IMG/VR virus record: IMGVR_UViG_2571042732_000002
Length of the DNA: 42,939 nucleotides
Strand: one strand, 5' to 3'
Origin: a virus
Taxonomy: Duplodnaviria; Heunggongvirae; Uroviricota; Caudoviricetes
Each line of letters begins with the position of its first letter. Within the stretch, counting starts at the first letter, position 1. The notes under the pieces are model-generated. The model was not told the DNA's origin. It did no database searches and saw nothing but the letters and a program-made list of their open reading frames with translations. A program made the position numbers and the translations under genes. This document shows, piece after piece, positions 5,641 to 42,939 of the stretch.

Positions 5641-6153
5641 TCAGTGAGCGTGCTTTTCTTTTAATTTTAGTGCAACAATTTTTGTGATCACTCCGGAAAG
5701 CAGCATCGTGTAATTAGGGATTTTTGATGCTTTGTTCAAAACAGAGCCAATAACTAGAAATATAGCTAAAATAAATCCGAATAATGTCATGGATATCATT
5801 GAAATTATAGGGTTTTTTGCCATGTACATTTGCATTAAAACTGCGAAAAAGCGGTCAAATTCCTCAGAGTTCTCCTTGATAATATCCTCGGGTTTATTTT
5901 TGCTGGAGGCTAAATAAAACACGATAATGAATGGAGAAGCTATGAGCATCAATGGCAATGCGAACCACATCCGCATTAGCTTGTAATTTAGGTACATTTT
6001 ATTTTTTTCCTTGTCTGATAAATTTTCATCATTAAGGAATGTACTAAGCATCTCAACCGCTTTTGCTTGGTGTTTTAGGGCGTTTTTTCTACAGAAAATC
6101 CAATAAGAAAGCACGCAAGCACTGGCAACAGCGGCATATATCCACGTCATCAT
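5641..6153 (-). CDS. Polytopic membrane protein, 170 aa, about 3 TM helices, rexB slot
   Basis: ATG at 6153 overlapping the stop of the upstream gene (TAATG) with AGGAGG just upstream; three hydrophobic helices; AT-rich codon usage. Confidence 0.7.
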   Translation of the reverse strand: MMTWIYAAVASACVLSYWIFCRKNALKHQAKAVEMLSTFLNDENLSDKEKNKMYLNYKLMRMWFALPLMLIASPFIIVFYLASSKNKPEDIIKENSEEFDRFFAVLMQMYMAKNPIISMISMTLFGFILAIFLVIGSVLNKASKIPNYTMLLSGVITKIVALKLKEKHAH

Positions 6154-6404
6154 TACTTACCTCCTTTCCGTTTCTTTTGCCTTGCTCTGATATCATTGAC
6201 TCTCTCATCGAGAAGTCGTTCACTTTTTCGTATACTACCCCATGTATAAATTAAGTAAATGATAATGACAGGAAGTGAAAGAACAAGCATTGCACCAAGA
6301 AAAGGTGACTTGGTGTAAATGTCGCTCCAAAACGAATGGGCGGCAATTATAGATTTAGGGACTGTTTCATCACCCATATCTATGTTTATTAAAGAAAAAC
6401 CCAA
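6153..6404 (-). CDS. Small single-pass membrane protein, 83 aa (74 aa from ATG 6377), rexA slot
   Basis: One hydrophobic helix (FLGAMLVLSLPVIIIYLIYTW) and a basic C-terminus; begins 40 nt downstream of the cI stop on the same strand; start is TTG 6404 or ATG 6377. Confidence 0.55.
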   Translation of the reverse strand: MGFSLINIDMGDETVPKSIIAAHSFWSDIYTKSPFLGAMLVLSLPVIIIYLIYTWGSIRKSERLLDERVNDIRARQKKRKGGK

Positions 6405-6443: not shown

Positions 6444-7136
6444 TCAACCATGTTTTCGGTAAGTTTGCGGCATGCTCCCAATAACCTTACCGAAGATGAA
6501 CACCCGGTTCATCTCGTCTTTCTCGATCGGGTCCCACGGTGAGTAGCTCTTGTTATCAGAGATAACCAGCAGCTTATCCTTCATCATTTGCAGGCGCTTT
6601 ACATGGGCTGTGTCGTCGTACAGAAACGCATAGATACCATCACCGTCGAAAGATTTAACAGTGATATCAACGAACAAAAGATCACCTGGTTCGATCGTTC
6701 CTGACATGCTGTCACCGCGTACGTTAATGATGCGGATATTTTCTGCCTTCCTGCCATCGAACATGTGACGAGCATCGTCAAACGAGTACTCAACCGAGCG
6801 TAGAACTTCTACAAACTCACGATTGATGACACCCGGTCCGGCACTGACTTCTATATCAAGAACGTCAATCTTGAAGTATTTGGAATGGTTGACAGCAGGC
6901 TTCCCTGATTGTTGACCGTCATTTCTCATCGGGCCTATGCCTGATGAGAGCCACTCTGTTCGAACACCCAATGCATTAGCTATTTCAACAATTTTTGTTG
7001 AGCCGCGCGCGTTGCCGCTTGTCAGTCTCCAGATTGTGGGTTGAGCTACGCCAGACGCCTTTGCAAGAGCGCCTTGAGACATTCCAGATTGTTCCATCGC
7101 TAGGTTTAAGCGATCAGCAAGAGTTTCTTTTTTCAT
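6444..7136 (-). CDS. cI: CI-type prophage repressor, HTH plus S24 LexA-like peptidase, 230 aa
   Basis: N-terminal HTH (GMSQGALAKASGVAQPTIWRL), C-terminal S24 motifs (GDSM ... AHVKRL). ATG 7136 preferred because the track's TTG at 7172 lies inside the proposed pRM -35. Confidence 0.8.
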   Translation of the reverse strand: MKKETLADRLNLAMEQSGMSQGALAKASGVAQPTIWRLTSGNARGSTKIVEIANALGVRTEWLSSGIGPMRNDGQQSGKPAVNHSKYFKIDVLDIEVSAGPGVINREFVEVLRSVEYSFDDARHMFDGRKAENIRIINVRGDSMSGTIEPGDLLFVDITVKSFDGDGIYAFLYDDTAHVKRLQMMKDKLLVISDNKSYSPWDPIEKDEMNRVFIFGKVIGSMPQTYRKHG

Positions 7137-7246
7137 AAGTTTTAATTTATACGCTTGCGTATTGATGGTCAAAACACGTTTTGCTATTGATTGGATTAAT
7201 ACGCATTGCTATTATCTATTCATTGCAATACCAATAGGAATTGATA
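7137..7246. promoter_or_regulatory. oR with divergent pRM and pR
   Basis: pR on plus strand: TTGATT (7187-7192), 17 nt, TATTAT (7210-7215). pRM on minus strand: TTGACC (7172-7167), 16 nt, ATAAAT (7150-7145), ending about 8 nt from the cI ATG (leaderless-like). TTGCTATTG-type repeats present. Confidence 0.6.
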
Positions 7247-9057: not shown

Positions 9058-9755
9058 AAAACATCGCCGCACAGATGGTTAACTTTGACCGTGAGCAGAT
9101 GCGCCGGATCGCCAACAACATGCCGGAACAGTACGACGAAAAGCCGCAGGTACAGCAGGTAGCGCAGATCATCAATGGTGTGTTCAGCCAGTTACTGGCA
9201 ACTTTCCCGGCGAGCCTGGCTAATCGTGACCAGAACGAACTGAACGAAATCCGCCGCCAGTGGGTTCTGGCTTTCCGGGAAAACGGGATCACCACAATGG
9301 AACAGGTTAACGCAGGAATGCGCGTAGCCCGTCGGCAGAATCGACCATTCCTGCCATCACCCGGGCAGTTTGTCGCCTGGTGCCGGGAAGAAGCATCCGT
9401 TAACGCCGGGCTGCCAAACGTCAGCGAGCTGGTTGATATGGTCTATGAGTATTGTCGGAAGCGTGGCCTGTATCCAGATGCAGAGTCTTATCCGTGGAAA
9501 TCAAACGCGCACTACTGGCTGGTTACCAACCTGTTCCAGAACATGCGGGCCAATGCGCTTACTGATGCGGAATTACGGCGCAAGGCTGCCGATGAACTGT
9601 CCTGTATGACCGCGCGAATTAACCGTGGTGAGGCGATACCTGAACCAGTAAAACAGCTTCCTGTCATGGGCGGTAGACCTCTAAATCGTGCACAGGCTCT
9701 GGCGAAGATCGCAGAAATCAAAGCTAAGTTTGGGCTGAAAGGAGCAAGTGTATGA
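9054..9755 (+). CDS. P: Replication protein P (DnaB helicase loader), 233 aa
   Basis: Translated ORF recognisably near-identical to lambda P; ATGA overlap with O. Confidence 0.95.
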   Translation: MKNIAAQMVNFDREQMRRIANNMPEQYDEKPQVQQVAQIINGVFSQLLATFPASLANRDQNELNEIRRQWVLAFRENGITTMEQVNAGMRVARRQNRPFLPSPGQFVAWCREEASVNAGLPNVSELVDMVYEYCRKRGLYPDAESYPWKSNAHYWLVTNLFQNMRANALTDAELRRKAADELSCMTARINRGEAIPEPVKQLPVMGGRPLNRAQALAKIAEIKAKFGLKGASV

Positions 9756-10050
9756 CGGGCAAAGAGGCAATTATTTATTACCTGGGGACGCATAAGAGCT
9801 TCTGTGCGCAGGACGTTGCTGCGGCAACAGGTGTGATAGTAACCTGCATAAATCAGGCAGCGGCTAAAATGGCGCGTGCAGGAATCCTGGTCATTGATGG
9901 TAAGGTCTGGCGAACACGGTGTATTACCGGGTTGCTACCAGGGAAGAACGGGAAGGAAAGGTGAGCTCGAATCTGATTTTCAAGGAGTGTCGCCAGAGTG
10001 CCGCGATGAAGCGGGGGCTGGCGGTATATGGGAGATTAGTTATTACTTGA
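9752..10050 (+). pseudogene. ren: ren, disrupted by a frameshift
   Basis: N-terminal 55 aa match lambda Ren in frame 1 (MTGKEAIIYYLGTHKSFCAQDVAA...GKVWRT); the rest of Ren (VYYR.ATREEREGK.S.NL.FKECRQSAAMKR) continues in another frame after about 9917; frame 1 stops at 9964. Confidence 0.6.
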
Positions 10051-10330
10051 TTTGATGGTTATCTTGAAAACATCCAATCAAATTTAATGGTTTGCTTTGT
10101 GCGGGGAACTATAACAATGTTCCTGGCTTGGTGCTGTATGAATTAGTGAATTAGTAGGGAATATATCCACACATTGATTAACACAAAAATATTTCAGATA
10201 GAAAATGTAACTCAAAGGATGAGTAATAATGGTTGTGTAGCGTATGACAGGATACTGAGGTAGTATTAAACAATGAATAAATCTGAATGACAAGCACCAG
10301 ATAATACTGTGGGTTAATCATTAGACATGA

Positions 10331-10396
10331 ACGCCACTAGTTACTGAGAATAACTAATGGCGTTGTGTTTATAGTTAAGATGTTTTTTAAAACATC
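10331..10396. terminator. Two tandem hairpins downstream of the HD gene, near the island left edge
   Basis: 13-bp inverted repeat with one mismatch (ACGCCACTAGTTA ... TAACTAATGGCGT, 10331-10363) and perfect palindrome GATGTTTTTTAAAACATC (10379-10396). Confidence 0.3.
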
Positions 10397-10404
10397 AGGG
10401 GGCT

Positions 10405-11952
10405 CTACTTGTTTTTTTTAATATGTTCAATCTCATCATTAAGACTTTTATCTATTTTTTTTATTAACACATTGATTTCTTTGGTGTTTTGGAGTTGAGT
10501 TGTCTTAGAAACAAAAACTCGAATAAAGAATTTAACATAGTGATAGGGTTGAAGCACTTCATTGCACTCACGCAAATCATTTATTTTATATTTGCCGCCT
10601 GTTTCTTTTTTTATTATTTTGGCTTGACTTGTATCGATATCTTTAAAGTTATCTTCAATCTGAAAATCAAGAACCCATTCATTTCCTTTTAAATTATCTT
10701 TAATAATTCCATCGATTTTATCAGATATATCTTGTTTGGCTTCTTTGTATTTTTTGTCGGAAAGTTTAACATTAGAAAAAGTATATTTTTTTTCATATAC
10801 CTTTTTCCAAACATTTCTCTTAATAATATCTTGAATTATAGTTTTGGGACTTTCACCTAATTTATTATAAAGAGTATGCTCTAAAAATTTCTTGTCTGGG
10901 TTTGCAAGATAAAAGTCTTTGATGGACTCGATGAGTGTGTCTTTATCTTCTAAAGAGATAACATCAACAGGGTTTTCTCCAGAGCACGCTTTATTAAGCA
11001 TGGCAGATAACGCACGGTTGGTCTTATGGAAATAAACTTGACTATAAAGCCCACTTCTCGCATTTGCAAACTCTAGTATTGAGTCCATACCACTTTCTTT
11101 ATATGCTAGGTAAACACTATTTCCAACCTTCACAGGGATAAATGACATTAACAATCGCCCATAATCATAAATCCCATATTTAACGCCTGAGAAGTAGCTA
11201 TCTCTAAGTAAGTAATCCATTCTATCTGCATCTATAGGTGAAGATGATATGATTGAACCCAACAAAGGATATAGATTTACTTCATCAATATTATTTTCAT
11301 AATTGTATTTTTTTTCAACAATTTTTATAATGCTTTCTGGGTTAATTTCCTCTATATTTTTTTTATAGGCATCGTCGTTATTTGATTCACTGTTAGCTTC
11401 TTTTTTTAATTCTTCAATTATTTCTTTGATAAAAATACATGACATTTGTTCATGGGTTAATCTATTATTATTATTTAGTGATATGATTTCATCGTATTTT
11501 TTAATCCCATCAGCCTTGCATTTTTCTTTGAAAGCGTTTACGGATATTGAAAAACTATCGAATTGGTGGGCAAGGGGGCCATGCCCAACATCGTGTAACA
11601 ATGCTGCAATACGTAGCTCCTGTATAAGACTTGCTGGCATTTTTTTTATATCTAAATATAAATCAACGCCCATATTTTTTCGGTCATAAATTAATGCATT
11701 CAAATTTATATTTTTCAAAATCTCATACGATAAATGCATTACACCGACAGAGTGTTCAAAGCGAGAGTGCATTGCAGAAGGAAATACTTTATATAGAAAC
11801 GTATTCTGCCTGATATCTCTTAGTCGCTGGAATAAAGGATGGTCAATTATCTTTTTTTCTAGCTTAGTTATTCGAATCACTCCATGTATGGGATCTAAAA
11901 ACTTCCCCAGAAGTAAGTCTTCAAAGTTCTCAAGTTTGTTTTTGTTTGTCAT
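10405..11952 (-). CDS. HD-domain protein, dGTPase/SAMHD1-like dNTP triphosphohydrolase family, 515 aa
   Basis: HD motifs in canonical order: RFEHSVGV, LLHDVGHGPLAH, DADRMDYLLRD; ATG 11952 with AGGAAA upstream; C-terminal third Lys-rich and low complexity. Confidence 0.75.
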   Translation of the reverse strand: MTNKNKLENFEDLLLGKFLDPIHGVIRITKLEKKIIDHPLFQRLRDIRQNTFLYKVFPSAMHSRFEHSVGVMHLSYEILKNINLNALIYDRKNMGVDLYLDIKKMPASLIQELRIAALLHDVGHGPLAHQFDSFSISVNAFKEKCKADGIKKYDEIISLNNNNRLTHEQMSCIFIKEIIEELKKEANSESNNDDAYKKNIEEINPESIIKIVEKKYNYENNIDEVNLYPLLGSIISSSPIDADRMDYLLRDSYFSGVKYGIYDYGRLLMSFIPVKVGNSVYLAYKESGMDSILEFANARSGLYSQVYFHKTNRALSAMLNKACSGENPVDVISLEDKDTLIESIKDFYLANPDKKFLEHTLYNKLGESPKTIIQDIIKRNVWKKVYEKKYTFSNVKLSDKKYKEAKQDISDKIDGIIKDNLKGNEWVLDFQIEDNFKDIDTSQAKIIKKETGGKYKINDLRECNEVLQPYHYVKFFIRVFVSKTTQLQNTKEINVLIKKIDKSLNDEIEHIKKNK

Positions 11953-12311
11953 GAGGCTTTCCTTTTGCTGTAGTTATAATACGAAATTTAAATAGTAATG
12001 ATGTTTATAGTTTCAATGTGTTATCTAATGGTTAACACATTGTGATGTAGCATATCAATATGGATTCATATGTTCAATTGGTCTGTGGAGTTTAGTTATG
12101 AATAAGATTGATTCTGGTAATACTTTGTAGTTTAAGCTAGAGGCGGGATTCGTGATGTTCAAATCAGTATGTAATGGAGGTTGTGCATTAGTACTTGCTG
12201 CTGGAAATTAAAAATAAAGTTGCAAGTAATCGACGTTTTCCGAGAGGAGGATGTAAGCATCGCTGACCAAAAAGTATCAACGATGCCTGTTTTGTTTTAA
12301 CTACAAATTAA

Positions 12312-13814
12312 TTAAATTGCATCTGCAAACTCTGGGACTTTTCGCTCAAGTATAATTGATGAGTTGCTGTTGTCGCTTTTTTTATTTTCATGATTACGAA
12401 TGGCCAATGACTCATTAAAGTCTTTTGCGACTGCTGTCTCAATAAATTCAATTTCTGAATCAGAGTGTTTTTTAACAGCTTCTTTGATCTCATCCAGAGT
12501 AACATAGAAAAACTCTTTTCTACGATTTACAAGATTGACTCTCTTTTTATCGAAGACATCATGTAGTTTTTTTTCTAATGATGGAGCGTCCTCCGAATAA
12601 ATCATGGCATGCACATCAAAAATAAAAGGAACAGATGCATCACCAAGCTCATTTACACGGTCTTGTGGATCAAGACGTCGTGTCATGCCTATTTTATAAA
12701 CATTCTCCCCAAAAGAACCTATGTTCGAAATAATATAAACATGACCTTGTTTGGTTTGTTGTGCCATGGATAATGCTCTTTGATGCTTTGATTCAGCCTG
12801 CGACAAACTCTGTTCTAGTTCGGCAATGCGATTTTCGAGGCGCTGCTTCATGTCACCAGTAACTTTTTCCATTTCCTTTCTTGCAGCTTCAATTGCTTTT
12901 TTATAACGGCGCTCTTCTGCCTCTGCGTCTTGCATTGCCTTTTCTATTTCTCGTTGTGCACGCTCCTCCTCTCTCATTTGTGCCCTTATTTCTGCCTGTT
13001 CTTCTTTTTCTTTCTGTTTTTGCTCACGATATTCATGGGTAAGCCACAACTCCTCAAGTTTTTTATTAAGGTATTTAGTATTTATATATATGTGATTTTG
13101 CTCGTTTAGTTTATTTATGGCCTCAAATGCCTTTGTGATGCGTTCTTCCATTTTAGTGATATTTTTCCACGTGCAATTACTAATTGCAGCATCACATTCA
13201 TTATTAAATGCTCTAGTAGTTAGCCTAATATTTCTGTCTGTCATTTTTTTACCCTCTGCTCGAGAGCCTTCAACAGTCCATTGGGTTGTACAATATACTG
13301 CACCAGAGTGGGTTTTATCCCGCAGCATTAATTTCTGTTCATCCCTGATGGATTTTATTTTGTTTTTAAATTGCTCTGAATCTTCAAAATTAAAATGAGG
13401 TTCGTAAAATCCTAGTTCGGTTAGTTCAACATCTTCTGAATAAATAGAAATTTGCTTTACTAGTTTATCATATATTTCTTTCTTCTCTTTATAAGTTCTT
13501 CTTAGTTCTTGGATTTGTTTATTGATACCATCCATTTTTTCAATGGTGTTTGTTAGTTCATTATTGGCATTTTCTTTTACTTTTTGGGACTCTTCTTTTA
13601 TAATGGAGCATTCTTGCTCTGTTTTTTCAATAAGCTTCTTACATTCCTCTTCCACATTAAAATAATCTGCAAAGCGAGATTTGTATTCTTCATTTTTTTG
13701 ATTGCTATCACTTAATTCTAATTGTATTTTTTTGATGCGTTTGATTGCAGCTATATATAGAACAAGAACAACCAATAAAAATATGATTGCAAGTAATAGT
13801 GGAGTTTGAGTCAT
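12312..13814 (-). CDS. Membrane-anchored coiled-coil protein with C-terminal T5orf172 (GIY-YIG-like) domain, DUF4041-like architecture, 500 aa
   Basis: N-terminal TM helix (LLLAIIFLLVVLVLYIAAI); long E/K/R/Q-rich heptad region; C-terminal GHVYIISNIGSFGENVYKIGMTRRLDPQDRVNELGD...RVNLVNRRKEFFYV matches the recalled T5orf172 consensus; ATG 13814 with AAGGAA upstream. Confidence 0.75.
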   Translation of the reverse strand: MTQTPLLLAIIFLLVVLVLYIAAIKRIKKIQLELSDSNQKNEEYKSRFADYFNVEEECKKLIEKTEQECSIIKEESQKVKENANNELTNTIEKMDGINKQIQELRRTYKEKKEIYDKLVKQISIYSEDVELTELGFYEPHFNFEDSEQFKNKIKSIRDEQKLMLRDKTHSGAVYCTTQWTVEGSRAEGKKMTDRNIRLTTRAFNNECDAAISNCTWKNITKMEERITKAFEAINKLNEQNHIYINTKYLNKKLEELWLTHEYREQKQKEKEEQAEIRAQMREEERAQREIEKAMQDAEAEERRYKKAIEAARKEMEKVTGDMKQRLENRIAELEQSLSQAESKHQRALSMAQQTKQGHVYIISNIGSFGENVYKIGMTRRLDPQDRVNELGDASVPFIFDVHAMIYSEDAPSLEKKLHDVFDKKRVNLVNRRKEFFYVTLDEIKEAVKKHSDSEIEFIETAVAKDFNESLAIRNHENKKSDNSNSSIILERKVPEFADAI

Positions 13815-14240
13815 TCGTGCTATTCCTTACGGACAATTTAAGACGTTTTGTATTAAATCCTGTTCAATGTGTATGCGGGTGATTGCTACCGCTTACAATC
13901 TTCATAATTATCAGTTAGATAGACTCGCTAGTAAATAATTTCATTTTTTGCAATATTCTTATTGAATATTTCAATTTATGAAATGAACTTTTTATCCTTT
14001 CAAGGCGAAAGGTTTCTTCTTCGGAAATATTTGCTCTCGTGTGACGTATAAAGGCCTTTGATTTTTAAAAATCAGTAGGGAATAATATAGTTACTGTCGG
14101 CCTGAACACCCGGCGGTGGGGTTGCGCCAAACGGGGACGTTTATGCGCACATACAATCTAAACTCTCTTCTCCCTTCACAGATGCAGAAATGCACCTGCG
14201 ATTTTTTGCATCCAACGTTTGACCTCTGCGGAGGTGAAGC

Positions 14241-14696
14241 GTGAACCTCCCACAAGACGGCATCAAATTACATCGCGGTAACTTCACCGCTATCGGTCAG
14301 CAGATCCAGCCTTATCTGGAGGACGGAAAATGTTTTCGCATGGTGCTTAAACCGTGGCGTGAGAAACGCAGTCTTTCCCAGAATGCACTCAGCCACATGT
14401 GGTACAGCGAAATCAGTGAATACCTCATCAGCAGGGGGAAATCGTTCGCTACCGCAGCATGGGTAAAAGATGTTCTCAAACACACATACCTCGGTTATGA
14501 AACCAAGGATCTGGTTGATGTCGTAACAGGCGAAATCACTACTATCCAGTCGTTACGCCATACCTCCGATCTTGATACCGGAGAGATGTATGTCTTCCTG
14601 TGTAAGGTTGAAGCCTGGGCGATGAATATTGGCTGCCACCTGACTATTCCGCAGAGCTGCGAGTTCCAGCTGCTGCGCGACAAGCAGGAGGCGTAA
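14241..14696 (+). CDS. ninB: NinB/YbcN-family recombination protein, 151 aa
   Basis: GTG start with GGAGG upstream; [12 protein letters not shown] motif comparable to lambda NinB RSLDQNRKLW; same length and position as DLP12 YbcN. Confidence 0.65.
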
Positions 14697-17910: not shown

Positions 17911-18204
17911 TTATTGTGAGCAATACACACGCGCTTCCAGCGGAGTATAAATGCCTAAAGTAATAAAACCGAGCAATCCATTTACGAATGTTTGCTGGGT
18001 TTCTGTTTTAACAACATTTTCTGCACCACCACAAATTTTTGCTGCATCGACAGTTTTCTTCTGCCCAATTCCCGAAACGAAGAAATGATGGGTGATGGTT
18101 TCCTTTGGTGTTACTGCTGTAGGTTTGTTTCCAACAGTAAACGTCTGTTGAGCACATCCTGTAATAAGCATTGCCAGAGCGGCAGAAAACAACATTTTTT
18201 TCAT
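17911..18204 (-). CDS. bor: Bor lipoprotein (serum resistance), 97 aa
   Basis: From ATG 18204 the product MKKMLFSAALAMLITGCAQQTFTV... is recognisably near-identical to lambda Bor; the track's longer ORF has a spurious N-terminal extension. Confidence 0.9.
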   Translation of the reverse strand: MKKMLFSAALAMLITGCAQQTFTVGNKPTAVTPKETITHHFFVSGIGQKKTVDAAKICGGAENVVKTETQQTFVNGLLGFITLGIYTPLEARVYCSQ

Positions 18205-18684
18205 CTTATTATCCTGCATTGTTAAAAACGGCAGAATCCTGTGTGACAACAATTAAACGATAGTTAAATGGATTGATGAAAATTAAAACTACACAGGTGG
18301 GCTCAGACTATTGGAGGAAGTTGGGGACACTCAGAATCCTGTGGAATGAAATAAACCGGTCTATCCGTCCATTACCCTTTTAGCTGCGCTGTATCGTCGC
18401 CGTATTCCCGCATTAACCATGACCGTAGCCCGACGGGGAATTCCTTCTGCGTGAGTGTGCGGGAATAATTAAAAACGATGCACACCGGGTTTTTACCGCG
18501 TTAATGATTCGCGGGTTTATCCCGGTGCGATGGTGGAAGAAACAGGAAGCTGTATTACAGAAAGTGCTACTACTGTATCCCGATGCGATGTATGTAATGT
18601 GAGTCAGATAATGGCACAGGATGTGGTGATGTGGCAGTCTGGAACACAGGATATATTGTCAGAATAAGACCCGTAGGAATAAAA

Positions 18685-19011
18685 ATGAAAAGACGCCTTT
18701 TACTACTTTTTCTGTTATCTGTCCTGGCAGTGGGATGCTCGCAGCAAAAAGCTGATGAGCCCCGGCAATTAGTGACGGTGTATCCACGATATCCGGAATA
18801 TGCTGCAGCAAATTATATCAAGGGGCTGGTTGAGGTTAAGTTCGATATTGGTGCTGATGGGACTGTGACACGGATCGTTTTTCTCCGCTCAGAGCCTCAT
18901 AATTTGTTTCGTGATGAAGTGGTGAAGGCCATGGCGAAATGGCGATTTGAAAAGAATCGCCCCTGTCAGGGAGTGAAGAGACAATTTATCTTTACGCCGT
19001 CACGTCCTTGA
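18685..19011 (+). CDS. Lipoprotein with TonB C-terminal-like domain, 108 aa
   Basis: Signal peptide with lipobox (LLSVLAVGC); the remainder follows the TonB-C pattern YP..A......G.V.V.F.....G.V.....V..S.....F......A...WRF. Confidence 0.55.
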   Translation: MKRRLLLLFLLSVLAVGCSQQKADEPRQLVTVYPRYPEYAAANYIKGLVEVKFDIGADGTVTRIVFLRSEPHNLFRDEVVKAMAKWRFEKNRPCQGVKRQFIFTPSRP

Positions 19012-29905: not shown

Positions 29906-30321
29906 GTTTTGCCCTGAAACTGGCGCGCGAGATGGGGCGACCCGACTGGCGTGCCATGCTTGCCGGGATGTCATCCACGGAGTATGCCGACTGGCACCGC
30001 TTTTACAGTACCCATTATTTTCATGATGTTCTGCTGGATATGCACTTTTCCGGGCTGACGTACACCGTACTCAGCCTGTTTTTCAGCGATCCGGATATGC
30101 ATCCGCTGGATTTCAGTCTGCTGAACCGGCGCGAGGCTGACGAAGAGCCTGAAGATGATGTGCTGATGCAGAAAGCGGCAGGGCTTGCCGGAGGTGTCCG
30201 CTTTGGCCCGGACGGGAATGAAGTTATCCCCGCTTCCCCGGATGTGGCGGACATGACGGAGGATGACGTAATGCTGATGACAGTATCAGAAGGGATCGCA
30301 GGAGGAGTCCGGTATGGCTGA
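29483..30321 (+). CDS. G-T: G-T fusion made by programmed -1 ribosomal frameshift
   Basis: Slippery heptamer GGGAAAG at 29881-29887 near the end of G; the -1 frame (track ORF 29887..30321) has no independent ATG/RBS and matches lambda gpT. Confidence 0.85.
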
Positions 30322-32875
30322 ACCGGTAGGCGATCTGGTCGTTGATTTGAGTCTGGATGCGGCCAGATTTGACGAGCAGATGGCCAGAGTCAGGCGTCAT
30401 TTTTCCGGTACGGAAAGTGATGCGAAAAAAACAGCGGCAGTCGTTGAACAGTCAATGAACCGGCAGGCGCTGGCTGCACAGAAAGCGGGGATTTCCGTCG
30501 GACAGTATAAAGCCGCCATGCGTATGCTTCCTGCACAGTTCACCGACGTGGCCACGCAGCTTGCAGGCGGGCAAAGTCCGTGGCTGATCCTGCTGCAACA
30601 GGGGGGGCAGGTTAAGGACTCCTTCGGCGGGATGATCCCCATGTTCAGGGGGCTTGCCGGTGCGATCACCCTGCCGATGGTCGGGGCCACTTCGCTGGCG
30701 GTGGCGACCGGTGCGCTGGCGTATGCCTGGTATCAGGGCAACTCAACCCTGTCCGATTTCAACAAAACGCTGGTCCTTTCCGGCAATCAGTCGGGTCTGA
30801 CGGCAGATCGCATGCTGGTCCTGTCCAGAGCCGGGCAGGCGGCAGGGCTGACGTTTAACCAGACCAGCGAGTCACTCAGCGCACTGGTTAAGGCGGGAGT
30901 AAGCGGTGAGGCTCAGATTGCATCCATCAGCCAGAGTGTGGCGCGTTTCTCCTCTGCATCCGGCGTGGAGGTGGACAAGGTCGCTGAAGCCTTCGGGAAG
31001 CTGACCACAGACCCGACGTCAGGGCTGACAGCGATGGCACGCCAGTTCCATAACGTGACGGCGGAGCAGATTGCGTATGTTGCTCAGTTGCAGCGTTCCG
31101 GCGATGAAGCCGGGGCATTGCAGGCGGCGAACGAGGCCGCGACGAAAGGGTTTGATGACCAGACCCGCCGCCTGAAAGAGAACATGGGTACGCTGGAGAC
31201 CTGGGCAGACAGGACAGCGCGGGCATTCAAATCCATGTGGGATGCGGTGCTGGATATTGGTCGTCCTGATACCGCGCAGGAGATGCTGATTAAGGCAGAG
31301 GCTGCGTTTAAGAAAGCGGACGACATCTGGAGTCTGCGCAAGGATGATTATTTTGTTAACGATGAAGCGCGGGCGCGTTACTGGGATGATCGTGAAAAGG
31401 CCCGTCTTGCGCTTGAAGCCGCGAGAAAGAAGGCTGAACAGCAGAGTCAACAGGACAAAAATGCGCAGCAGCAGAGCGATACAGAAGCGTCACGGCTGAA
31501 ATATACCGAAGAGGCGCAGAAGGCTTACGAACGGCTGCAGACGCCGCTGGAGAAATATACCGCCCGTCAGGAAGAACTGAACAAGGCACTGAAGGACGGG
31601 AAAATTCTGCAGGCAGATTACAACACGCTGATGGCGGCGGCGAAAAAGGACTATGAAGCGACGCTGAAAAAGCCGAAACAGTCCGGCGTGAAGGTGTCTG
31701 CGGGCGATCGTCAGGAAGACAGTGCTCATGCTGCCCTGCTGACGCTTCAGGCTGAACTCCGGACGCTGGAGAAGCATGCCGGAGCAAATGAGAAAATCAG
31801 CCAGCAGCGCCGGGATTTGTGGAAGGCGGAAAATCAGTTCGCGGTACTGGAGGAGGCGGCACAACGTCGCCAGCTATCCGCACAGGAGAAATCCCTGCTG
31901 GCGCATAAAGATGAGACGCTGGAGTACAAACGCCAGCTGGCTGCACTTGGCGATAAGGTCACGTATCAGGAGCTCCTGAACGCGCTGGCGCAGCAGGCGG
32001 ATAAATTCGCACAGCAGCAACGGGCAAAACGGGCCGCCATTGAGGCGAAAAACCGGGGGCTGACTGACCGGCAGGCAGCGCGGGAAGCCACGGAACAGCG
32101 TCTGAAGGAACAGTATGGCGATAATCCGCTGGCGCTGAATAACGTCATGTCAGAGCAGAAAAAGACCTGGGCGGCTGAAGACCAGCTTCGCGGGAGCTGG
32201 ATGGCAGGCCTCAAGTCCGGCTGGAGTGAGTGGGAAGAGAGCGCCACGGACAGTATGTCGCAGGTTAAAAGTGCAGCCACGCAGACCTTTGATGGTATTG
32301 CACAGAATATGGCGGCGATGCTGACCGGCAGTGAACAGAACTGGCGCAGCTTCACCCGCTCCGTGCTGTCCATGATGACAGAAATTCTGCTTAAGCAGGC
32401 AATGGTGGGGATTGTCGGGAGTATCGGCAGCGCCATTGGCGGTGCTACCGGTGGCGGCGCATCAGCGTCAGGCGGTACAGCCATTCAGGCAGCTGCGGCG
32501 AAATTCCATTTTGCGACCGGAGGATTTACGGGAACCGGCGGCAAATATGAGCCAGCGGGGATTGTTCACCGTGGTGAGTTTGTCTTCACGAAGGAGGCAA
32601 CCAGCCGGATTGGCGTGGGGAATCTTTACCGGCTGATGCGCGGCTATGCCACCGGTGGTTATGTCGGTACACCGGGCAGCATGGCGGACAGCCGGTCGCA
32701 GGCGTCCGGGAAGTTTGAGCAGAATAACCATGTGGTGATTAACAACGACGGCACGAACGGTCAGATAGGGCCACAGGCGCTGAAGGCTGTTTATGACGTA
32801 GCCCGTAAGGCGGCAATGGATGTTGTGACCGGGCAGATGCGCGATGGTGGTCTGTTCTCCGGAGGTGGACGATGA
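30314..32875 (+). CDS. H: Tail tape measure protein H, 853 aa
   Basis: Matches lambda gpH in length and sequence. Confidence 0.95.
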   Translation: MAEPVGDLVVDLSLDAARFDEQMARVRRHFSGTESDAKKTAAVVEQSMNRQALAAQKAGISVGQYKAAMRMLPAQFTDVATQLAGGQSPWLILLQQGGQVKDSFGGMIPMFRGLAGAITLPMVGATSLAVATGALAYAWYQGNSTLSDFNKTLVLSGNQSGLTADRMLVLSRAGQAAGLTFNQTSESLSALVKAGVSGEAQIASISQSVARFSSASGVEVDKVAEAFGKLTTDPTSGLTAMARQFHNVTAEQIAYVAQLQRSGDEAGALQAANEAATKGFDDQTRRLKENMGTLETWADRTARAFKSMWDAVLDIGRPDTAQEMLIKAEAAFKKADDIWSLRKDDYFVNDEARARYWDDREKARLALEAARKKAEQQSQQDKNAQQQSDTEASRLKYTEEAQKAYERLQTPLEKYTARQEELNKALKDGKILQADYNTLMAAAKKDYEATLKKPKQSGVKVSAGDRQEDSAHAALLTLQAELRTLEKHAGANEKISQQRRDLWKAENQFAVLEEAAQRRQLSAQEKSLLAHKDETLEYKRQLAALGDKVTYQELLNALAQQADKFAQQQRAKRAAIEAKNRGLTDRQAAREATEQRLKEQYGDNPLALNNVMSEQKKTWAAEDQLRGSWMAGLKSGWSEWEESATDSMSQVKSAATQTFDGIAQNMAAMLTGSEQNWRSFTRSVLSMMTEILLKQAMVGIVGSIGSAIGGATGGGASASGGTAIQAAAAKFHFATGGFTGTGGKYEPAGIVHRGEFVFTKEATSRIGVGNLYRLMRGYATGGYVGTPGSMADSRSQASGKFEQNNHVVINNDGTNGQIGPQALKAVYDVARKAAMDVVTGQMRDGGLFSGGGR

Positions 32876-42358: not shown

Positions 42359-42939
42359 TGGCATTCAGAATGAGTGAACAAGCACGGACCATAAAAATTT
42401 ATAACCTGCTGGCCGGAACTAATGAATTTATTGGTGAAGGTGACGCATATATTCCGCCTCATACAGGTCTGCCTGCAAACAGTACCGATATTGCACCGCC
42501 AGATATTCCGGCTGGCTTTGTGGCTGTTTTCAACAGTGATGAGGCATCGTGGCATCTCGTTGAAGACCATCGGGGAAAAACGGTCTATGACGTGGCTTCC
42601 GGCGACGCGTTATTTATTTCTGAACTCGGCTCATTACCGGAAAATGTCACCTGGTTATCCCCGGAAGGGGAGTTTCAGAAGTGGAACGGTACAGCCTGGG
42701 TGAAGGATACGGAAGCAGAAAAACTGTTCCGGATCCGGGAGGCGGAAGAAACAAAAAACAGCCTGATGCAGGTAGCCAGTGAGCATATAGCGCCGCTTCA
42801 GGATGCTGTAGATCTGGAGATCGCAACGGAGGAAGAAACCTTGTTGCTGGAAGCCTGGAAAAAGTATCGGGTGTTGCTGAACCGTGTTGATACATCAGTA
42901 GTACCGGATATTGAGTGGCCAGTAGCACCTATAGGGTAA
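42358..42939 (+). CDS. tfa: Tail fibre assembly protein Tfa, 193 aa
   Basis: MAFRMSEQ... matches lambda Tfa; ATG overlaps the stf stop (TAATG); stop codon is the last three bases of the window. Confidence 0.9.

What the first reader, a model, noticed from the sequence alone, without database searches (positions are those of the whole stretch)
12312..13814. Membrane-anchored coiled-coil protein ending in a T5orf172/GIY-YIG-like domain
The architecture is unusual: one N-terminal TM helix, about 300 aa of charged heptad-like coiled coil, then a C-terminal domain matching the recalled T5orf172 consensus (GxVYxxSN...KIG.T.R....R..EL....PF......DA...E..LH..F...RVN...RKEFF). A putative nuclease-like domain held at the membrane by a long coiled coil, in a prophage accessory island, fits an abortive-infection or defence effector; I do not recognise it as a characterised system.
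Basis: partly seen in the sequence, partly recalled or inferred. Interest (0 to 1): 0.75.

Follow-up and report, generated by a model that had tools for sequence, protein, structure and literature searches.

The report
Known phage defence nuclease SNIPE (PD-λ-1)
This gene is a 99%-identical copy of SNIPE (PD-λ-1), a published membrane-anchored nuclease carried by E. coli prophages that cuts incoming phage DNA as it is injected, so the feature is real but already known.

Summary
The ORF at 12312..13814 (− strand, 500 aa) is real and has the described layout. It has an N-terminal transmembrane (TM) helix, long charged helices, and a C-terminal T5orf172/MUG113 (GIY-YIG-type) domain. The "300 aa coiled coil" is actually two heptad-like helical segments around a ~100-aa globular DUF4041 domain.

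It is not uncharacterised. It matches the PADLOC PD-Lambda-1 model end to end (E = 1e-198). It is 495/500 aa identical to the gene annotated "PD-lambda-1" in phage PhiR26_1. PD-λ-1 was found by Vassallo et al. 2022 and explained as SNIPE by Saxton et al., Nature 2026. [quoted passage not shown] It is targeted there through ManYZ and the phage tape measure protein, and it gives direct defence, not abortive infection. The catalytic E414 and all eight other residues named in that paper are present.

The gene occurs in 131 of 5426 complete E. coli genomes, always at the ren–ybcN site of lambdoid prophages. The neighbouring HD gene is a SAMHD1-family homologue. It sits on a separate 2.2-kb insertion present in only 21 of those genomes, and its homologues stand alone in other genera. 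It is therefore not a SNIPE partner. Novelty: already known.

The parts
12312..13814 (-). SNIPE / PD-λ-1 gene (500 aa plus stop codon)
   Evidence: ORF confirmed. PADLOC PD-Lambda-1 PDLC03976 matches residues 1-485 of a 491-position model, E 1.2e-198. PHROG 1847 matches full length, E 7e-196. 495/500 aa identical to the 'PD-lambda-1' gene of phage PhiR26_1.
13743..13802 (-). N-terminal transmembrane helix, residues 5-24 (PLLLAIIFLLVVLVLYIAAI), followed by KRIKK
   Evidence: Kyte-Doolittle mean 3.37. Helical in the AlphaFold2 model. These are the same residues deleted in the published ΔTM construct, as read from primer oDS47. A hydrophobic N-terminus is present in all 38 aligned homologues.
13416..13742 (-). 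Membrane-proximal long charged helix, residues 25-133. It carries three of the five allelic differences (Q77L, K120R, T132A).
   Evidence: AlphaFold2 helices 5-47, 49-52 and 54-133. Heptad periodicity z 3.4, 43% charged residues. This is the least conserved region and varies in length among homologues.
13080..13388 (-). Globular DUF4041 domain, residues ~143-245 (Pfam core 198-252). The published work assigns it DNA binding and tape-measure-protein contact.
   Evidence: Pfam PF13250, E 1.2e-19. AlphaFold2 pLDDT above 90 with mixed α/β structure. No heptad signal. Functional assignment comes from the paper.
12756..13079 (-). Linker helices, residues 246-353
   Evidence: AlphaFold2 helices 246-317 and 321-353. 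Heptad periodicity z 2.7, 45% charged residues.
12468..12746 (-). GIY-YIG-type nuclease domain (T5orf172/MUG113), residues 357-449
12573..12575 (-). Codon of catalytic Glu414. The published E414A mutant loses defence and toxicity.
   Evidence: Residue 414 is E. Published primers oDS92/93 differ from the window at exactly 12573-12574, which are the engineered E414A bases. Phenotype is from the paper.
13815..14096 (-). Upstream region equivalent to the 282 bp that carried the native promoter in the functional PD-λ-1 clone
   Evidence: Clone coordinates 48998-50844 versus gene 49060-50562. This region is collinear and 96.9% identical with the SNIPE-only locus. A σ70-like site lies at 13935-13907 on the − strand, but the scan as a whole is at chance level.
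10037..12249 (-). Adjacent, separate 2.2-kb module carrying the SAMHD1-family HD gene (CDS 10405-11952). It is not part of SNIPE.
   Evidence: This segment replaces 207 bp of the SNIPE-only locus. The HD protein matches PDB 2hek (7e-29), EF1143/2o6i (5e-28) and SAMHD1 (~3e-25). It is present in 21 of 131 SNIPE-bearing genomes. Homologues elsewhere are lone genes.

Best explanation
[quoted passage not shown] It is a single-gene anti-phage system expressed from a lambdoid prophage in the lysogen.

Mechanism, taken from the published work on a protein 99% identical to this one:
- Membrane anchoring keeps the GIY-YIG nuclease away from the chromosome.
- The protein associates with the ManYZ mannose permease that λ uses for DNA entry.
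- During infection its DUF4041 domain contacts the incoming phage's tape measure protein and the DNA.
- The nuclease (catalytic E414) then cuts the phage genome while it is being injected.
- The cell survives, so this is direct defence. λ-like and many other siphoviruses are restricted. DNA already inside the cell, such as the resident prophage on induction, is untouched.

Shown here: the identity, the domain anatomy, the conserved catalytic residues, the genomic context and the independence from the HD gene.

Inferred: that this particular allele, with 5 substitutions outside the DUF4041 and nuclease domains, behaves like the tested one.
For: - PADLOC PD-Lambda-1 matches full length, E 1.2e-198.
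- Pfam finds DUF4041, T5orf172 and MUG113 at the same residue ranges that Vassallo's HHpred table lists for PD-λ-1: 197-252, 357-448 and 373-449.
- The protein is 500 aa, the same length as the published one. All 9 residues named in the SNIPE paper are present: E223, N250, L253, W257, E264, K305, I308, T319 and E414. The chance of this is about 3e-11.
- Published SNIPE primers match the common E. coli allele exactly, apart from the engineered bases. The window allele differs from that allele by 28 of 1503 nt and 5 aa.
- 495/500 aa identity to the CDS annotated PD-lambda-1 in phage PhiR26_1.
- Some RefSeq records already name the orthologue 'SNIPE associated domain-containing protein'.
- GIY-YIG motif residues and E414 are invariant in homologues.
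- Mechanism comes from PMC13190303 / 10.1101/2025.11.03.685801.
- The single gene suffices for defence. The cloned fragment held only this gene, and 110 of 131 E. coli carriers lack the HD gene.
Against: - No experiment was done on this exact allele. It has 5 substitutions relative to the tested protein (Q77L, K120R, T132A, L489P, V493T). Three of them lie in the N-terminal region, which the authors propose acts as a specificity 'adapter'.
- The promoter scan found nothing above chance.
- How the nuclease is kept off membrane-proximal host DNA remains unresolved in the literature itself.
Confidence: 0.93

Rival explanations
1. It is an abortive-infection effector. On sensing infection, the membrane-tethered nuclease is released or activated and destroys host DNA, killing the cell.
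For: Many nuclease-bearing defence genes act this way. The ΔTM version of SNIPE is toxic and cuts host DNA.
Against: For the 99%-identical protein, infected cells keep growing even at high multiplicity of infection. No lysis is seen by time-lapse microscopy. 32P-labelled injected λ DNA is degraded. Tethering host DNA to the membrane adds no toxicity.
Confidence: 0.03
2. SNIPE and the downstream HD (SAMHD1-like) gene form one obligate two-gene system.
For: The two genes are on the same strand and 360 bp apart. No terminator-like site is predicted between them on the − strand. In complete E. coli genomes the HD gene is found only next to SNIPE, 21 of 21.
Against: The cloned PD-λ-1 fragment contained SNIPE alone and defended. 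Of 131 SNIPE-bearing genomes, 110 lack HD, as does phage PhiR26_1. The HD gene lies on a discrete 2.2-kb insertion. HD homologues at 73-78% identity in Enterobacter, Proteus and Serratia have no DUF4041 neighbour. The closest SNIPE homologues in Vibrio and Shewanella are annotated as single DUF4041 proteins.
Confidence: 0.04
3. The window allele is a functionally altered or inactive variant of SNIPE, for example with shifted phage specificity caused by the N-terminal and C-terminal substitutions.
For: There are five substitutions relative to the tested allele. The paper shows that single substitutions can change specificity by 6-7 logs, although those lie in DUF4041 and the linker. This allele class tracks with the presence of the HD gene.
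Against: None of the 5 changes falls in DUF4041, in the linker positions that changed specificity, or in the nuclease domain. The ORF is intact. The exact protein was seen on 373 contigs, which argues for purifying selection.
Confidence: 0.06
4. It is a core phage replication or structural protein, for example an SMC/ParA-like 'chromosome segregation ATPase' as some records annotate homologues.
For: Some database names for homologues read 'chromosome segregation ATPase' or 'ParA'. There is a weak NCBIfam hit to an SMC-related protein (E 1.4e-4, 20.7 bits against a cut-off of 300).
Against: Those names and hits reflect coiled-coil composition only, and no ATPase domain is found. The gene is on the opposite strand to the phage early operon. 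It sits in a low-GC island that is absent from most lambdoid phages.
Confidence: 0.01

Closest known systems
SNIPE / PD-λ-1 of E. coli ECOR26 (phage PhiR26_1; Vassallo et al. 2022, PMC9519451; Saxton et al., Nature 2026, PMC13190303)
   Same: Same gene. It has 500 aa, 495 identical. TM, DUF4041 and GIY-YIG domains sit at the same residues, and E414 is present. The insertion site between ren and ybcN of a λ-like prophage is the same. The λ-type tape measure gene in the carrier phage is the same type.
   Different: There are five substitutions (Q77L, K120R, T132A, L489P, V493T) and 28 nucleotide differences. This allele class has a 2.2-kb HD-gene module inserted 62 bp downstream of the stop codon, and ren is a pseudogene.
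GIY-YIG nucleases (SLX1, HIGLE; Pfam T5orf172/MUG113 branch)
Other membrane-associated defences and exclusion systems acting at DNA entry (Zorya, Kiwa, HK97 gp15), as discussed in the SNIPE paper
   Same: They act at the inner membrane at or near the genome-injection step. HK97 gp15 also depends on the tape measure protein and is also prophage-encoded.
   Different: They have no sequence relationship to SNIPE and use different effectors. Per the authors, SNIPE directly cleaves the DNA rather than blocking entry or sensing membrane perturbation.
PADLOC candidate PDC-S57 (T5orf172-containing)
   Same: It shares the C-terminal T5orf172-type domain (E 1.8e-18 over residues 354-468).
   Different: Only the nuclease domain matches. 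There is no DUF4041 or N-terminal match.

Membership tests
SNIPE / PD-λ-1 | Full-length match to the family profile | tested here: met
   PADLOC PDLC03976 matches residues 1-485 of a 491-position model, E 1.2e-198. PDLC03977 gives E 4.7e-195.
SNIPE / PD-λ-1 | Central DUF4041 domain | tested here: met
   PF13250 at residues 198-252, E 1.2e-19, 70 bits against a cut-off of 27. AlphaFold2 models a globular domain at 143-245 with pLDDT above 90.
SNIPE / PD-λ-1 | C-terminal GIY-YIG-type nuclease domain with the catalytic Glu (E414) | tested here: met
SNIPE / PD-λ-1 | N-terminal membrane anchor (single-pass TM, N-out/C-in) | tested here: met
   Hydropathy 3.37 over residues 6-24, with KRIKK on the C-terminal side. 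Helical in the model. Topology itself was not measured here. It was shown by PhoA-LacZα fusions for the 99%-identical protein.
SNIPE / PD-λ-1 | Near-identity to the experimentally tested protein | tested here: met
   495/500 aa identical to PhiR26_1 PD-lambda-1. Published primers match the common allele exactly, apart from engineered bases.
SNIPE / PD-λ-1 | A single gene is sufficient; no obligate partner | tested here: met
   The cloned fragment held one gene. 110 of 131 E. coli carriers lack the HD gene. The evidence is genomic only; the function of this allele alone was not tested.
SNIPE / PD-λ-1 | Protects against λ and other siphoviruses by cleaving DNA during injection | not testable with these tools
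   Known only from the literature on the ECOR26 allele.
GIY-YIG nuclease superfamily | β-β-α-β-α core with GIY / YIG / Arg / Glu / Asn motif residues | tested here: met
Abortive infection systems | The infected cell dies or arrests without releasing phage | not testable with these tools
   Published data for the near-identical protein show the opposite: infected cells survive.
Two-gene HD + DUF4041 system | Conserved co-occurrence of the two genes across genomes and taxa | tested here: not met
   HD is present in 21 of 131 SNIPE-bearing genomes. HD homologues in three other genera have no DUF4041 neighbour.
dGTPase / SAMHD1-type dNTPase defence (for the neighbouring HD gene only) | Match to the defence dGTPase profile; HD metal-binding motifs; dNTP hydrolysis | tested here: inconclusive
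   HD motifs are present (RFEHS, LLHDVGHGP, DADRMDYLLRD). There is SAMHD1-family homology at E ~1e-25 to 1e-29. The PADLOC dGTPase profile gives only E 0.003, 15 bits. Activity is not testable here.

The most novel reading that the evidence does not exclude
The SNIPE gene itself is known. The one thing here that I could not find described is the 2.2-kb module inserted just downstream of it (10037-12249). It carries a 515-aa SAMHD1-family HD phosphohydrolase that no PADLOC defence model recognises. In complete E. coli genomes it is found only beside SNIPE, yet it is a lone mobile gene in variable islands of other Enterobacterales.

The most novel reading not excluded is this. The HD gene is an uncatalogued stand-alone dNTP-depleting defence gene. 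Together with SNIPE it forms a stacked two-layer prophage cassette: a nuclease acting at injection, then nucleotide depletion against phages that get through.
Probability: 0.25. Interest if true: 0.4.

Novelty: already known. Interest (0 to 1): 0.12.

Why it matters
A nuclease that tells self from non-self by where the DNA is (entering through the membrane) rather than by sequence or modification is a distinct immune principle. But that work is done, and this locus adds only another allele. Its practical value is annotation. This prophage should be labelled as carrying SNIPE/PD-λ-1, and lysogens can be expected to resist λ-like and many other siphoviruses. The only open thread is the adjacent SAMHD1-like HD gene.

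Tried and rejected
- A sequence search of the PDB found no solved relative of SNIPE. The best E was 0.078, from low-complexity helices.
- The promoter/terminator scan of 9900-14400 found 21 promoter-like sites against 18.1 expected and 4 terminator-like sites against 3.0. No transcription-unit claim can rest on it.
- The NCBIfam hits (SMC-related protein ASRP, MazE antitoxin) are far below their cut-offs. I rejected them as coiled-coil noise.
- A literature search by protein accession (WP_032286720, WP_032286722, WP_000195116, RCP76574) found nothing.
- The library does not hold Brenes & Laub 2025 (Cell Host Microbe), which describes the PhiR phages. I could not check whether it mentions the HD gene.
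- I considered Clover (CloA dGTPase plus CloB) for the HD gene. No nucleotidyltransferase partner lies next to it in the window or in the homologue loci, so I did not file it there.

Full report
**Observation.** The window holds an intact 500-aa ORF at 12312..13814 on the − strand.
- It lies in a 4-kb island of 31-35% GC, inside a prophage that is otherwise 47-55% GC.
- Residues ~5-24 form the only strongly hydrophobic segment (Kyte-Doolittle 19-residue mean 3.37). They are followed by KRIKK.
- Pfam places DUF4041 at residues 198-252 (E 1.2e-19), T5orf172 at 357-449 (E 6.9e-17) and MUG113 at 373-449 (E 7e-19).
- AlphaFold2 on a 38-sequence alignment (mean pLDDT 78.5) gives a continuous helix from the TM segment to residue 133. 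A compact α/β globular domain follows at ~143-245 (pLDDT above 90), then long helices at 246-353 and an α/β domain at 358-481.
- Heptad a/d hydrophobic periodicity exceeds shuffles only in the two helical stretches: z 3.4 for residues 26-133 and z 2.7 for 246-353.

The "~300 aa coiled coil" is two helical segments interrupted by the globular DUF4041 domain.

**Identity.** PADLOC's PD-Lambda-1 profile matches the protein end to end (residues 1-485 of a 491-position model, E 1.2e-198). PHROG 1847 does the same.

PD-λ-1 was recovered by Vassallo et al. 2022 in a functional selection for λ resistance. It came from ECOR26 as a single 1503-bp gene, cloned with 282 bp upstream and 62 bp downstream. 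Their HHpred table lists DUF4041 at 197-252, T5orf172 at 357-448 and MUG113 at 373-449, the same ranges I find.

Saxton et al. renamed it SNIPE (bioRxiv 2025; Nature 2026;653:861, PMC13190303). Several lines tie the window ORF to that protein:
- The published protein is also 500 aa. All nine residues named in the paper are present in the window protein: E223, N250, L253, W257, E264, K305, I308, T319 and E414.
- The paper's primers match the common E. coli allele (e.g. NZ_AP021944.1, WP_000195116.1) exactly, apart from the engineered bases.
- The window allele differs from that allele at 28 of 1503 nt and 5 aa: Q77L, K120R, T132A, L489P and V493T, written window→published.
- Phage PhiR26_1 (PV340555.1) annotates the gene as "PD-lambda-1". 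The window protein is 495/500 identical to it.
- Recent RefSeq records already call the orthologue "SNIPE associated domain-containing protein".

**Mechanism (from the literature, on the 99%-identical protein).**
- Deleting the TM segment (residues 5-24) makes it toxic. It then binds the nucleoid and makes double-strand breaks. E414A abolishes both toxicity and defence.
- DUF4041 is required for defence and promotes DNA binding.
- SNIPE does not affect adsorption or the amount of DNA injected. Injected 32P-labelled λ DNA is degraded, and ParB-marked genomes fail to appear.
- Prophage induction from inside the cell is unaffected, and infected cells keep growing. This is direct defence, not abortive infection.
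- Proximity labelling links SNIPE to ManYZ and to the λ tape measure protein.
- SNIPE also restricts most BASEL siphoviruses independently of ManYZ.
- Substitutions in DUF4041 and the linker raise protection against Bas14-18 by 6-7 logs. Escape mutations map to the tape measure protein, and a crosslinker placed at N250 captures that protein.

**My own checks of the catalytic domain.**
- G357, V359, Y360, K374, G376, R379, R380, E414 and N430 are invariant across 38 homologues of 49-56% identity.
- A model of the domain alone has β-β-α-β-α topology (pLDDT 68.5).

**Context.**
- The window is 100% identical over 10000-14200 to E. coli MP1, SCU-111 and others.
- It is a λ-like prophage integrated beside icd. 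SNIPE sits on the opposite strand between O/P/ren and ybcN(ninB)/ninE/rusA/Q.
- SNIPE occurs in 131 of 5426 complete E. coli genomes at 95% identity or more.
- More than 8000 database proteins share the same three-domain Pfam signature. The nearest relatives outside the E. coli cluster are only 56-57% identical, in Vibrio, Shewanella and Photobacterium.
- The prophage's own tape measure gene (30314-32875) is 96.4% identical to λ H. The carrier phage therefore belongs to the clade that SNIPE restricts. This fits a role in excluding superinfecting relatives.

**The HD neighbour.**
- The 515-aa protein encoded at 10405-11952 (− strand) is a SAMHD1-family HD phosphohydrolase homologue. It matches PDB 2hek at 7e-29, EF1143 at 5e-28 and SAMHD1 at ~3e-25 over residues 19-430, with intact HD motifs.
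- It hits no PADLOC family convincingly. The dGTPase profile gives E 0.003.
- It lies on a discrete 2213-bp segment (10037-12249) that replaces 207 bp of the SNIPE-only locus. The junctions are in the last 21 bp of ren and 62 bp past the SNIPE stop codon.
- Only 21 of the 131 SNIPE-bearing genomes have it, and PhiR26_1 lacks it.
- Homologues at 73-78% identity in Enterobacter, Proteus and Serratia are lone genes in variable or defence-rich islands, without a DUF4041 neighbour.

I conclude it is an independent module stacked at the same prophage hotspot, not a SNIPE partner. It may be a dNTP-depleting defence gene, by analogy with bacterial dGTPase and Clover systems, but that is untested.

**Verdict.** It is an already characterised system (SNIPE/PD-λ-1), it acts by direct defence rather than abortive infection, and it does not need the HD gene. 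Novelty: already known. Interest is low, apart from the unexamined HD module.

Noticed in passing
window 10037-12249 (HD CDS 10405-11952, − strand): A SAMHD1-family HD phosphohydrolase gene lies on a discrete 2.2-kb insertion just downstream of SNIPE. No PADLOC defence model recognises it. In complete E. coli genomes it is found only beside SNIPE (21 of 21), but it is a lone gene in variable islands of Enterobacter, Proteus and Serratia. It is a possible uncatalogued dNTPase defence gene.
   Followed up: partly
window 10405-11952 versus 12312-13814: In 16 E. coli genomes the HD gene is only 89-90% identical to the window copy, while the adjacent SNIPE gene is 99.3-99.4% identical. This is a sharp step in divergence between neighbouring genes. 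It suggests recombination or fast evolution of the HD gene.
   Followed up: no
window 5641-6153 (−) and 6153-6404 (−): Two membrane-protein ORFs (170 aa with several TM segments, and 83 aa) lie directly downstream of the cI-like repressor gene (6444-7172). This is the position of rexAB in λ. The stretch is low in GC, and neither ORF has a Pfam or PADLOC hit. They may form an uncharacterised exclusion module expressed in the lysogen.
   Followed up: partly
window 9752-10055 (+): ren is a pseudogene here. It is frameshifted (two overlapping ORFs in different frames; RefSeq flags it 'frameshifted'), and its last ~21 bp are replaced at the left junction of the HD module.
   Followed up: partly
window 30314-32875 (+): The prophage's own tape measure gene is 96.4% identical to λ H and 96.7% identical to that of PhiR26_1. 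The SNIPE carrier therefore has the same tape-measure type that SNIPE targets, which implies exclusion of its own relatives.
   Followed up: partly
window 42701-42899 (+): A full-length Rfam IS009 small-RNA match (221 bits against a gathering score of 117) lies at the right end of the window, beyond the side tail fibre gene.
   Followed up: no
window 17911-18252 (−) and 18631-19011 (+): Lysogenic-conversion-type cargo lies after the lysis genes: an Iss/Bor-type serum-survival lipoprotein and a small TonB-family protein, as annotated in the identical E. coli MP1 locus.
   Followed up: no
SNIPE homologue set: There is a large identity gap between the E. coli SNIPE cluster (95% or more) and the next relatives (56-57%, Vibrionaceae and Shewanella). 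With the 35% GC of the gene, this suggests fairly recent acquisition from a low-GC marine gammaproteobacterial lineage.
   Followed up: no
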